From a virus (Duplodnaviria; Heunggongvirae; Uroviricota; Caudoviricetes), in the IMG/VR virus record IMGVR_UViG_641522650_000003: 51,299 bases of DNA; one strand, 5' to 3'. Of this stretch, positions 42,001 through 45,000 are shown piece by piece; the first letter of the stretch is position 1, and each line of letters begins with the position of its first letter. The position numbers are program-made.

Positions 42001-45000
42001 GCGATATATTCAAAGGCCTTTTCGGTATCAAGGTCACTTTCAATCGTCGCTGCATACATCGCCTTTATGAAAAGACAGGAAAAAATAAAATTTAAAAACA
42101 GTACATTACGAATGCTCAGACCTATCGTTTAAAGGAGTCGCAATACACACTGCAATACACGATTATTTATAAGATGAGCGGCATCCGTCATAAAGCTGGT
42201 GGATGCTTTTTCTATGCATATATGCACAGTTTTAGTGGGCGTTAATGTCGATATAGGGATCCCCATATCGAGATTGGATACCAGGCTTTTTTAATCAGGC
42301 TGGTGGGCTTTACCTGTTTTGTATGAGTGGTCATCATGACCATGTCATAACAAAAACCCCATATTCGTGGTTTTTCTGTGTCGGGCTATTCTGTCGTTGC
42401 TGTGCTGATTTGGCTGGTGGGCTGAATCATCATTACGGCGATGCAGCTATGTAGACGTTCCGGCCTCCTCAAATTGAGGATTGTGGAAGAATCAATGGGT
42501 TAGTCTTACTTTCCCGACATCCCCCAATGGGGGGTTTCGAAACAATCAATAGCTTAGGCTTACTTCCCCGATTTCCTGCATTGCAGGTTTTCGAAATAAT
42601 CAATGGGTTAGGCCATCGTGCAATTTTGCACTTTGCCAGCCAGCGCAATGTCGCGTTATCAGTCCTCAGATGTGAGGGATGTAGCCAGCTTTTCCCCCAG
42701 TGGGGGATATCCAGCACCGACGGCTTAACTGTGCGTGCCAGCACAAGGTAGCCTTGAACTACTTACTGCATCCCATCTTACAGGCCGTGCCTTCCTGCTT
42801 AACTTTTTGCAATGCAACAAGTCAGCCAGCGCAATTTTGCGTTATCGGGAATATCAGCAAGTTACCGCCGCAATCGTTCCGGCTTCTTCCACTGGTAAGT
42901 ATTTTTCGCGCTCTCCCTCCGTTGTTGAGAACGGCGACGATATGCCAGCAACTCAAGGACTCTTGTTCGTATGTTGCGCATATCCACGCCGTTAAGCTCA
43001 ATACCGTCACGGCGCATCACCTCAGCCACTACACGCACATAATTATCTGCGGTCACGCTGTCCGGCTGCGTGGCCTGTTCGTCATGCTGCTTGCTGATTC
43101 CACAAGCACGGCGGATTAATCGCAGTATTTCGGATTCAGTCATAGCGTACTACGTTACTTATCTTTATTCGGCTGCAACTTATCCGGTACGTTTCCGGCA
43201 GTTTCCATCAGATAATCGGACAGCTGAGGTGTACTGGCAATAGCGGACACTACCATTTGTTCTTTTTTAAGCAGCCATCTGATGATATTTTTCCCTGAAG
43301 GCTGCCGGGGAGATATTCCCCAGACGAGAGTGACGACGCTGACGATTGTAGAAAATCTCAATGTATTCCCGTATTACTGAGATGGCTTCATCCCGGTTAT
43401 TAAAACGATAGTGGCTCAGGCTCTCATTTTTCAGCGTTCCCCAGAAGCTTTCCATCGGAGCGTTGTCGTAACAGTGACCTTTACGCGACATTGATGTTTT
43501 CAGACCAGACTGCTCCTGTATGACCCGGTAATCGTATGCGCAGTACTGTGAACCTCGATCAGAGTGGTGGATTAGCCCGGCAGGTGGGCGCTGGCTCCTG
43601 AGCGCCATAAACAGGGCTTTACCTGTCAGCTCTTTTGTCATGCGCTCTCCCATGGCGTAGCCGACAATTTCGCACGTATAAACATCTTTGATGCCAGCGA
43701 GGTACAACCATCCCTCCTGTGTGGCAACATACGTCAGGTCCGCCACCCAGACCTGATTTGGTGCTGTAGGAGCGAACGTCTGGTTCAGCAGATTTGGCGC
43801 AACTGGCAGATTGTGGTTCGGGTTCGTAGTCGCTCTGAACTTGCGTTTCTGCTTACAGCGTAGCCTTAGCTCCTTACGAAGACGTGCCAGTCGGTCACGA
43901 CCAACGATGATGCCATTCTCTGCCAGCTCCGTCTGGAGCCGCCGGGTTCCATATGTTTCGCGAGTGCGGATATGTGCCACCTTAATCTCCAGTTTTAGCC
44001 GCTCATCACTTTGTTTTCTGTCTGAGGGTTCATGCTGTACCCAGTTGTAATAACCGCTCCTGGATACACCAAATACCTGACACATCGCTTCAATGGGAAA
44101 TTGTTGTCGCCATTGTTCGATTAACGCGTATTTTTCAGCGACTCCTGTGCAAAATACGCTGTTGCTTTTTTTAATATATCTCGCTCAAGGCGAGCTTCAT
44201 TTAACGCCTTACGCAGTTGCAGAATTTCAGATTCCAGTTCAGCCACCGTGCGGGAACCAGGAGTACCGAGCCCTTTTCTGGCGGCGGTAACCCATTGTCC
44301 TAAAGTGCCTTCAGGAAGGGATAATCGGGAAGCGCCTTCACTGATCGAAAGTTGATTTTCAAGAACCGTTCTGACAGCTTCGGCTTTGAACTCTTTAGAG
44401 TAACGTTGGTTTTTTCTGCTCATTATTAGCTCCTTCTGATGCCATTCTATTTCAGGAAGGAGTGTCCGTTAAACTCAGGCTACCTCAGAAAGTTGATCTG
44501 ACCTCTCAGTAAATATCAATACGGTTCTGGCGAGCCGCTTACGTGCAGCAGTCTTATCCGGCAGTTTAAAGGGGAGGACGGAGACCAATGAGGCACTGGA
44601 GCAGATTCAGTGCAGAGGTGACCTGCTTTATCAAACTTAATTGTGACAAAATGGCGATTGAGAAGGTGCAATTGACTTATCCGGATTCGGTCGTGGCGAG
44701 GTGGTGCCCCTGCATTCTGCTAACCGGGTTATGAGCCAGGAGTCAGCGATAGACAAAGGGACTTATCTGACCGGGCCCCCGGAAAAATGGCGGGAGAGAA
44801 TGATACCTTCCTGCTGACGAGACCGGACTTTGAGATGACGAGCGATAGTGCGGCAGTGATGTACAGCCTGATCGGTAGCTGCAAAACTTAACGGAATCGA
44901 GCCGGAAACGTGGCTACGCCACGTGATCAGTGTAATCAACACCTGGCCTGCCAACCGCATGAAAGAGTTGTTGCCCTGGAACGTCACTCTCTCTGTAAAC

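What the first reader, a model, noticed from the sequence alone, without database searches (positions are those of the whole stretch)
42862..43224. Orphan 93-aa basic ORF wedged between the repeat block and an IS600-like copy
The ORF has a plausible helix-rich, Arg-rich composition like small DNA-binding or regulatory proteins, but no recognisable family from recall and no strong RBS. Its upstream region is cut by the IS600-like element 81 bp from the start codon. It could be cargo of the element that replaced the prophage early region.
Basis: inference. Interest (0 to 1): 0.35.

Follow-up and report, generated by a model that had tools for sequence, protein, structure and literature searches.

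The report
Stranded end gene of phage satellite
The 93-codon ORF is a real, widely conserved gene of unknown function that normally ends a phage-satellite island (PICI); here it is a leftover, because an IS600 insertion removed the rest of the satellite, so it is not an orphan.

Summary
The ORF (42862-43143, minus strand, 93 aa, pI 10.6) exists as described, and IS600 starts 81 bp upstream of its start codon. It is not an orphan. The identical protein is annotated as hypothetical in RefSeq. Homologues occur in 1575 of 5426 complete E. coli genomes, under purifying selection (dN/dS 0.23). In every locus examined it lies in a phage-inducible chromosomal island, at or near its right end, usually just after a packaging gene (terS, rpp, DUF1441 or terL). 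The EcCICFT073 homologue maps to clone c1505. Published work found that c1505 does not block lambda and that a deletion including it still transfers. In this window the gene is the last piece of a helper-embedded PICI that sat in a lambdoid portal gene. The diagnostic doubled TGTATTGC motif and the portal junction are present. IS600 removed everything upstream of the last 70 nt of the satellite's terS. No Pfam, NCBIfam, PADLOC, PDB or fold match was found. The gene is tightly linked to a downstream array of IHF-site-plus-palindrome units that starts in its own stop codon, followed by clustered Chi sites. My best guess, at low confidence, is a small nucleic-acid-binding accessory protein acting on that array.

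The parts
42862..43143 (-). ORF93: intact 93-aa gene of the PICI end-gene family (EcCICFT073 c1505 / phrog_1561 / WP_000140265.1)
43155..43224 (-). Last 70 nt, including the stop codon, of the satellite's Nu1-type small terminase gene. The rest was removed at the IS600 junction. The stop lies 11 nt before the ORF93 ATG.
   Evidence: L001 8756-8825 corresponds to window 43155-43224
43225..44488 (-). IS600 copy (1264 bp). Its transposase ORFs are co-oriented with ORF93. It marks the truncation point of the satellite.
42846..42864 (-). First repeat unit core (TAACTTGCTGATATTCCCG). Its TAA is the ORF93 stop codon. A short palindrome (GCGCAAAATTGCGC) follows.
42460..42621 (-). Three tandem 54-nt units. 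Each has a perfect IHF consensus core (42490, 42544, 42598) and a 13-nt palindrome whose stem sequence differs between units.
42195..42420 (+). Cluster of three Chi sites (GCTGGTGG at 42195, 42299 and 42413). These are three of only four in the 51-kb window.
42140..42159 (-). Doubled TGTATTGC motif, diagnostic of helper-embedded PICI attP arms, about 81 bp from the portal junction
   Evidence: PMC10111431
41286..42059 (-). 3' part of the lambdoid portal gene (equivalent to lambda gpB residues 277-533). This is the attR side of the satellite insertion.

Best explanation
What it is (confidence about 0.95). ORF93 is the intact last gene of a helper-embedded phage-inducible chromosomal island (HE-PICI). 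That island had integrated, co-oriented, into the portal gene of a lambdoid prophage. IS600 later removed the whole satellite upstream of the last 70 nt of its Nu1-type terS, including cos, capsid, replication and integration genes. What remains is terS-tail, ORF93, the repeat array, the Chi cluster and attR. The family is the same as EcCICFT073 c1505 and the gene 13 nt after terL in the cf-PICI EcCIEDL933.

How it most likely works (inferred, confidence about 0.3). In intact satellites the gene is expressed late. It is often translationally coupled to the preceding packaging gene, with gaps of 2-15 nt after terS, DUF1441, a 153-aa gene or terL. The product is an 11-kDa three-helix protein with a +9 C-terminal tail ending in the conserved Y-x-W-K-K-P-E-R-L-R-R. 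I propose that it binds nucleic acid at the array of IHF-site-plus-palindrome units that begins in its own stop codon. Together with host IHF it would build a nucleoprotein structure at the satellite's right end, between the cos/terminase genes and attP. This role would be accessory, not essential for transfer. In this window the satellite is dead, so the gene is at most a passively expressed relic.
For: Identity. Window 42025-43224 is 98-99.9% identical to intact loci and the match ends at the IS600 edge. In APEC O2-211 the identical ORF follows cos and terS in a primase/SSB/capsid/decoration island that abuts a truncated portal gene. The doubled TGTATTGC motif lies at the published distance from the junction. 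The portal remnant equals gpB 277-533.

Family and synteny. phrog_1561 matches full-length at E=1e-55. Homologues are in 1575 of 5426 E. coli genomes but in only 1 of 50,697 phage records. In 91 surveyed loci the upstream neighbour is usually terS, rpp, DUF1441 or terL. Primer mapping identifies EcCICFT073 clone 'c1505' as the homologue.

Coding. dN/dS is 0.23 and third codon positions vary most.

Mechanism. The protein has pI 10.55 and a +9 tail. The ORF's stop codon starts a unit motif in 42 of 65 distinct downstream regions, and 47 of 65 have at least two units. An independent motif-first scan of 2.9 million viral contigs found the 20-nt unit 45 times, 42 of them 44-412 nt after a co-oriented ORF93 homologue. 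Three IHF consensus cores sit at exact 54-nt spacing, against 1.9 expected in the whole window.
Confidence: 0.55

Rival explanations
1. Packaging accessory factor. The protein would work with the satellite's or helper's terminase (TerS, Rpp or TerL), for example to stabilise or target the packaging complex. That would explain why it is coupled to packaging genes.
For: It lies 2-15 nt after four unrelated packaging-associated genes: Nu1-type terS, DUF1441, a 153-aa gene and HK97-type terL. In EcCICFT073-type islands it sits just outside the second, inverted cos. In the cf-PICI EcCIEDL933 a 'hypothetical gene 1792' of the packaging module gave severely reduced transfer when mutated. That gene could be this one, or the 60-aa ORF between HNH and terS; I could not resolve the numbering.
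Against: The gene is present in satellites with no packaging gene upstream, where SSB or PerC is the neighbour. Nearly identical alleles follow rppA in CFT073 and a 180-aa terS in Nissle 1917. The EcCICFT073 c1504-07::cat derivative is still packaged and transferred. There is no similarity to the lambda gpA N-terminus.
Confidence: 0.2
2. Host- or phage-directed accessory gene. It would act as an interference, immunity or regulatory factor carried at the satellite's right end, where PICIs are reported to keep defence cargo.
For: PICI regions before and after the packaging module are described as variable and expected to encode immune systems. The gene is dispensable for transfer.
Against: Expression of c1505 did not reduce lambda plaquing; only c1503 (rppA) did. 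There is no PADLOC match. The gene is highly conserved across islands rather than variable, which is unlike defence hot-spot cargo.
Confidence: 0.12
3. RNA-binding regulator of the lambda N type. The Arg-rich tail (RRRSQQRRESAKNTYQWKK) would bind hairpins in its own 3' untranslated transcript to control read-through toward attP and int.
For: From my recall, the tail resembles the lambda N arginine-rich motif (RRRERRAEKQAQWK). A conserved linear motif followed by a hairpin resembles a boxA/boxB arrangement. Stem sequences vary while pairing is kept.
Against: No Pfam hit to N proteins. Hairpin loops differ between units. Single mismatches in the stems show no G:T over A:C bias (8 versus 11), so nothing favours sense-strand RNA pairing. 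No Rfam match in 41900-43400.
Confidence: 0.07
4. Not a gene. It would be a chance ORF, or the longer antisense ORF (annotated as c1506 in CFT073) would be the real one.
For: The antisense frame is open for 139 codons here and was annotated and cloned as c1506.
Against: Codon-position variability (33/31/59) and dN/dS of 0.23 fit the sense frame. The antisense frame would have its most variable position first. The sense ORF keeps its length, start and C-terminus from E. coli to Citrobacter.
Confidence: 0.02

Closest known systems
EcCICFT073 c1505 (uncharacterised gene downstream of rppA in the model Gram-negative PICI)
   Same: Same family: 93 aa, same start and C-terminus, about 80% nucleotide identity in the closely related Nissle 1917 copy. 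Same position as last gene before the repeat array and attR.
   Different: In CFT073 it is preceded by rppA and an inverted second cos, with its own G-rich ribosome site. Here it followed a Nu1-type terS by 11 nt, and its island is now truncated.
Helper-embedded PICIs (Tommasini, Mageeney and Williams, NAR Genom Bioinform 2023)
   Same: Insertion in a lambdoid portal gene, co-orientation, the doubled TGTATTGC motif about 81 bp from the junction, and PICI gene content in intact relatives.
   Different: Only the right-hand roughly 1.2 kb survives here. Integrase, alpA, primase, capsid genes and cos are gone.
SaPI Ppi (small staphylococcal island protein said to block the helper TerS)
   Same: From my recall: a small satellite protein encoded next to the satellite's terS.
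   Different: No sequence relationship was found. The E. coli homologue did not inhibit lambda when expressed alone.
Rpp proteins (redirecting phage packaging)
   Same: Satellite-specific, small, and encoded beside cos.
   Different: Rpp proteins have a winged-HTH Nu1-like DNA-binding domain and block lambda. ORF93 shows no HTH or Nu1 signal and no interference.
Recombination directionality factors (Xis/Cox type)
   Same: Small, basic, encoded next to the attachment site, and adjacent to directly repeated DNA with IHF sites.
   Different: No match to Xis, AlpA or HTH_17 profiles. The array lies 400-800 bp from the crossover. An island lacking the gene still completes transfer.

Membership tests
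PICI end-gene family (phrog_1561 / EcCICFT073 c1505) | Full-length sequence match to the family profile | tested here: met
   phrog_1561 E=1.2e-55, residues 1-93 of 93. Identical to WP_000140265.1.
PICI end-gene family (phrog_1561 / EcCICFT073 c1505) | Position at or near the end of the satellite's rightward gene set, followed by the repeat array and attR | tested here: met
   The stop codon starts a unit in 42 of 65 regions. In some islands one to two further genes (an antisense ORF plus PerC, or an antiterminator Q homologue) follow the ORF.
Helper-embedded PICI | [quoted passage not shown] | tested here: met
   The portal remnant equals gpB 277-533 on the same strand and abuts satellite DNA.
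Helper-embedded PICI | Doubled TGTATTGC motif about 81 bp from the att centre | tested here: met
   Single match in the window at 42140-42159 on the minus strand; 0 expected. Definition from PMC10111431.
Helper-embedded PICI | Integrase of the HE-PICI clade, alpA and primase present | tested here: not met
   Absent from the window. Only 42025-43224 matches the intact relative. They were lost at the IS600 junction, so this is a remnant and not a functional member.
Helper-interference proteins (Ppi/Rpp-like) | Blocks helper phage reproduction when expressed alone | not testable with these tools
   Published test of the homologue: pBAD18-c1505 did not reduce lambda plaques (PMC6739421; clone mapped).
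Nu1 / winged-HTH terminase small subunits | Phage_Nu1 or HTH profile match | tested here: not met
   Pfam gave only a sub-threshold Arabinose_bd hit (E=0.1). PDB sequence and profile searches were empty.
Lambda N-type ARM antiterminators | ARM that binds boxB RNA hairpins next to boxA | tested here: inconclusive
   The tail resemblance is by eye only. No Pfam hit. No G:T versus A:C asymmetry in hairpins. No Rfam hit.
Known anti-phage defence proteins | Match to a PADLOC model | tested here: not met
   0 families for three family members at E<=10.

The most novel reading that the evidence does not exclude
ORF93 may be the protein subunit of a conserved right-end module of enterobacterial PICIs that I found no description of in the papers I searched. 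The module would consist of a small basic protein gene, an array of IHF-site-plus-palindrome units that starts in the gene's stop codon, and a Chi-rich stretch (95 Chi sites in 52 kb of distinct downstream regions). It would protect, organise or recombine the satellite DNA end nearest cos, for example against RecBCD, or in packaging termination or late-zone exchange.
Probability: 0.2. Interest if true: 0.55.

Novelty: already known. Interest (0 to 1): 0.25.

Why it matters
For this window, the analysis turns an apparent orphan into an explained relic. It dates the order of events: a satellite entered the prophage portal gene, then IS600 removed most of the satellite. More generally, it flags a gene present in about 29% of complete E. 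coli genomes and in all three E. coli PICI types (classical, helper-embedded and capsid-forming) that still has no assigned function. The gene sits in the very segment (c1504-07) that is routinely replaced by markers when PICIs are engineered as delivery vehicles. If the ORF, IHF array and Chi cluster do have a role in DNA-end protection or recombination, those engineered islands lack it.

Tried and rejected
1. Curated family assignment failed: Pfam, NCBIfam and PADLOC gave nothing usable.
3. I tested whether the ORF is a retained N-terminal, Nu1-binding piece of the large terminase gpA. hhalign probability was 0.1% and BLASTP E was 0.15, so I rejected this.
4. I tested whether the hairpins act as sense-strand RNA. 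There is no G:T over A:C bias and no Rfam family.
5. I asked whether the ORF's tail allele tracks the upstream packaging gene or the first downstream unit. It does not: CFT073 (rppA) and Nissle 1917 (terS) carry near-identical ORFs, and different tails share the same first unit.
6. I asked whether the repeat block is the integrase arm site. The published HE-PICI arm motif is a different sequence, found separately at 42140-42159.
7. I tried to resolve 'hypothetical gene 1792' of EcCIEDL933. There are no supplements or locus-tag hits in the held library, and the journal version is not held.
8. Species-representative genomes gave only two loci, Shigella flexneri and Cedecea davisae. The single phage-record hit, a Klebsiella phage, had no informative annotation.

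Full report
**Observation**

The window has an ATG-initiated 93-codon ORF at 42862-43143 on the minus strand.
- The protein has 17 Arg, pI 10.55 and net charge +8. A charge of +9 is concentrated in the last 27 residues.
- AlphaFold2, run on a 45-sequence alignment, predicts three helices (3-14, 32-45, 52-80), a low-confidence linker and an extended tail. Mean pLDDT is 75.
- Eighty-one bases upstream of the ATG the sequence becomes IS600. IS600 spans 43225-44488 (1264 bp), has terminal inverted repeats, and is annotated as an IS600 family transposase in E. coli genomes.
- No good ribosome-binding site precedes the ATG.

**It is a real gene**

Among 49 distinct homologous coding sequences, variable alignment columns number 33, 31 and 59 at codon positions 1, 2 and 3. 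Nei-Gojobori dN/dS is 0.23 overall, 0.15 for residues 32-70 and 0.14 for the tail. The longer antisense ORF (42700-43119, plus strand) has its third codon position opposite the sense first position, so it shows the wrong pattern (phase worked out by hand from the coordinates).

**It is not an orphan**

- Pfam, NCBIfam and PADLOC give nothing. PHROGs family 1561, of unknown function, matches end to end at E=1e-55.
- The large protein collection holds 977 clusters at 90% identity, all named 'hypothetical' or 'prophage protein'.
- An exhaustive search of 1.8 billion cluster representatives finds only 39. The family is therefore narrow and enterobacterial: Escherichia/Shigella, Citrobacter, Salmonella, Cedecea and one Klebsiella 'phage' record.
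- The ORF's DNA matches 1575 of 5426 complete E. coli genomes, with up to six copies per genome.
- Only 1 of 50,697 phage records has even a weak match. It is thus a satellite gene, not a helper-phage gene.

**Genomic context elsewhere**

- **APEC O2-211:** the identical protein (WP_000140265.1) is the last gene of an island. The order is BRO-N, Icd-like, DUF4222, primase, SSB, major capsid, head decoration, AlpA-like HTH, a lambda-type cosN, then a 180-aa small terminase whose C-terminal two thirds match Phage_Nu1. The ORF starts 11 nt after the terS stop. About 800 bp of non-coding DNA follows, then a portal gene lacking its N-terminus.
- **CFT073, Nissle 1917 and O157:H7:** homologues end the classical PICI next to phoQ.
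- **O157:H7 strain GTVSS-023:** the gene lies 13 nt after terL of a 15-kb capsid-forming PICI. By its size, gene content and position between roxA and phoQ, I take this island to be EcCIEDL933. The terL-plus-ORF pair is present in 530 genomes.
- **Other islands:** the gene follows DUF1441 by 2 nt, follows a 153-aa gene in Citrobacter by 15 nt, or follows SSB or PerC where no packaging genes are present. In some of these islands a few further genes follow it (an antisense ORF plus PerC, or an antiterminator Q homologue).

**What the window holds**

- Only 42025-43224 of the window matches the APEC island, at 98.3% identity. The flanking prophages differ. This is what site-specific insertion of the same satellite into different helpers would give.
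- The doubled motif TGTATTGC-N4-TGTATTGC was described as diagnostic of helper-embedded PICI attachment arms, lying 81+/-2 bp from the att centre. It occurs once in the window, at 42140-42159 on the minus strand, with 0 expected by chance. That places the crossover at the start of the portal remnant.
- The portal remnant aligns to lambda gpB residues 277-533.
- The locus is therefore the right end of an HE-PICI inserted at the B:Phage_portal_2 site. IS600 removed everything upstream of the last 70 nt of terS.
- The IS600 transposase genes read toward the ORF. A 9/12 promoter-like match spans the IS end and the terS remnant (43240-43212), but such matches are no more frequent there than in shuffled sequence.

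**What is known experimentally about the family**

- The supplementary primer table of Fillol-Salom et al. 2019 (PMC6739421) lets the EcCICFT073 clones be mapped. pJP2220, named 'c1505', covers the homologue in the sense orientation with 57 nt of leader. 'c1506' is the antisense ORF.
- That paper reports that only c1503 (rppA) reduced lambda plaquing.
- The island used for transfer assays, c1504-07::cat, deletes L004 3104-4001. That removes the second cos, the ORF, the repeat array and a Chi site.
- The deleted island still transfers at about 1e6-1e7 per ml.
- The family is therefore not a lambda-interference factor and is dispensable for the excision-replication-packaging cycle in the laboratory.
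- One lead remains open. In EcCIEDL933 a 'hypothetical gene 1792' of the packaging module gave severely reduced transfer when mutated. I could not determine whether this is the ORF after terL or the 60-aa ORF between HNH and terS.

**The linked non-coding module**

- The ORF's stop codon is the first base of a repeat unit: TAAC-N4-YTGATATT-YYCG, then a 5-6 bp palindrome. Internal units often end in GGCG-N-GGTAAC, the same sequence as the ORF's last codons.
- In the window there are four units. Three of them are exact 54-nt tandem repeats, each with a perfect IHF consensus core. The only other IHF-consensus matches in the window are four identical copies of one sequence at 5822, 15271, 19050 and 23569, apparently the end of a repeated IS element.
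- In 65 distinct downstream regions the stop codon starts a unit in 42, and 47 regions have at least two units.
- I also searched 2.9 million viral contigs with the 20-nt unit alone. Of 45 instances, 42 lie 44-412 nt after a co-oriented ORF homologue. Two of the three exceptions are chance hits in unrelated sequence.
- Beyond the array lie clustered Chi sites. Three of the window's four fall within 226 bp. Across the 65 regions there are 95 Chi sites in 52 kb, mostly in one orientation.
- Single mismatches in the palindromes show no G:T over A:C bias, and Rfam finds nothing. Nothing therefore favours an RNA-level role.

**Mechanism**

No sequence or fold comparison gives a lead. The idea that the ORF is a retained gpA N-terminus is rejected.

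The features I can rely on are these:
- a small helical protein with a strongly basic, invariant tail;
- late expression, often coupled to a packaging gene;
- strict linkage to an IHF-site/palindrome array that begins in its own stop codon;
- dispensability for transfer.

The reading that fits most of them is a nucleic-acid-binding accessory protein that acts in cis on that array together with IHF. I hold this at about 0.3. The rivals are:
- a terminase-associated packaging cofactor (0.2), which would rise sharply if '1792' proves to be this gene;
- a host- or phage-directed accessory factor (0.12);
- an N-like RNA-binding regulator (0.07).

In this window the satellite has lost integrase, alpA, replication genes and cos. 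Whatever the protein does in intact islands, here it is a relic.

**Verdict**

The object is an already catalogued, functionally unassigned PICI gene in a decayed context. Interest is low to moderate. The most novel reading not excluded is that the ORF, the IHF array and the Chi cluster form a functional right-end module of enterobacterial satellites.

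Noticed in passing
window 42460-42864 (minus strand): Array of repeat units, each an IHF consensus core plus a short palindrome with unit-specific stem sequence. Three units are exact 54-nt tandem repeats. The first unit contains the ORF93 stop codon, and internal units repeat the ORF's last codons (GGCGGTAAC).
   Followed up: partly
window 42195-42420 (plus strand): Three Chi sites within 226 bp, out of only four in the 51-kb window. Downstream regions of homologues are about 9-fold enriched in Chi relative to my recalled genome average (95 in 52 kb), mostly oriented to be met by RecBCD coming from the cos/terS side.
   Followed up: partly
L004 2559-2583 and 3285-3309; L002, L003, L007: In EcCICFT073-type PICIs two inverted cosN copies flank the rpp/terS gene. 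In one strain (L007) the terS segment between them is inverted relative to the ORF, which suggests an invertible or recombining cassette.
   Followed up: no
window 42700-43119 (plus strand): The longer antisense ORF (139 aa) corresponds to what was annotated and cloned as c1506 in CFT073. Its codon-position variability argues that it is not coding.
   Followed up: yes
window 43212-43240 (minus strand): Promoter-like match with the -35 hexamer in the IS600 end and the -10 in the terS remnant, 69 nt upstream of the ORF. It could drive the relic, but it is a 9/12 consensus match no more frequent than in shuffles.
   Followed up: no
protein P0150: A 75-aa protein joins what looks to me (by recall, not profile-tested) like a P27-family small terminase N-terminus to the ORF93 C-terminal tail (YRRRSQQRRESAKNTYQWKKPERLRR). 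It shows recombination at the YRRR junction between a terS and this gene.
   Followed up: no
L097 14172-14354 and 16493-16774 (a cf-PICI I take to be EcCIEDL933, in O157:H7): The published 'hypothetical gene 1792' with a severe transfer defect could be either of these two hypothetical ORFs. The numbering could not be resolved with the held literature.
   Followed up: partly
window 42025-43224 versus L001: The satellite right end is 98% identical to that in APEC O2-211, but the surrounding prophage late genes are not (one other blastn match, 76% over a tail-gene stretch). The same HE-PICI therefore sits in different helper prophages.
   Followed up: partly
window 45221-47311 (minus strand) and many IS copies across the window: Just beyond the IS600 lies a 696-aa TonB-dependent receptor-like ORF, which from recall resembles Iha. 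The window is dense in IS elements, some of which look by eye like IS1 or IS66. This suggests a Shigella-like or heavily IS-laden E. coli genome.
   Followed up: no
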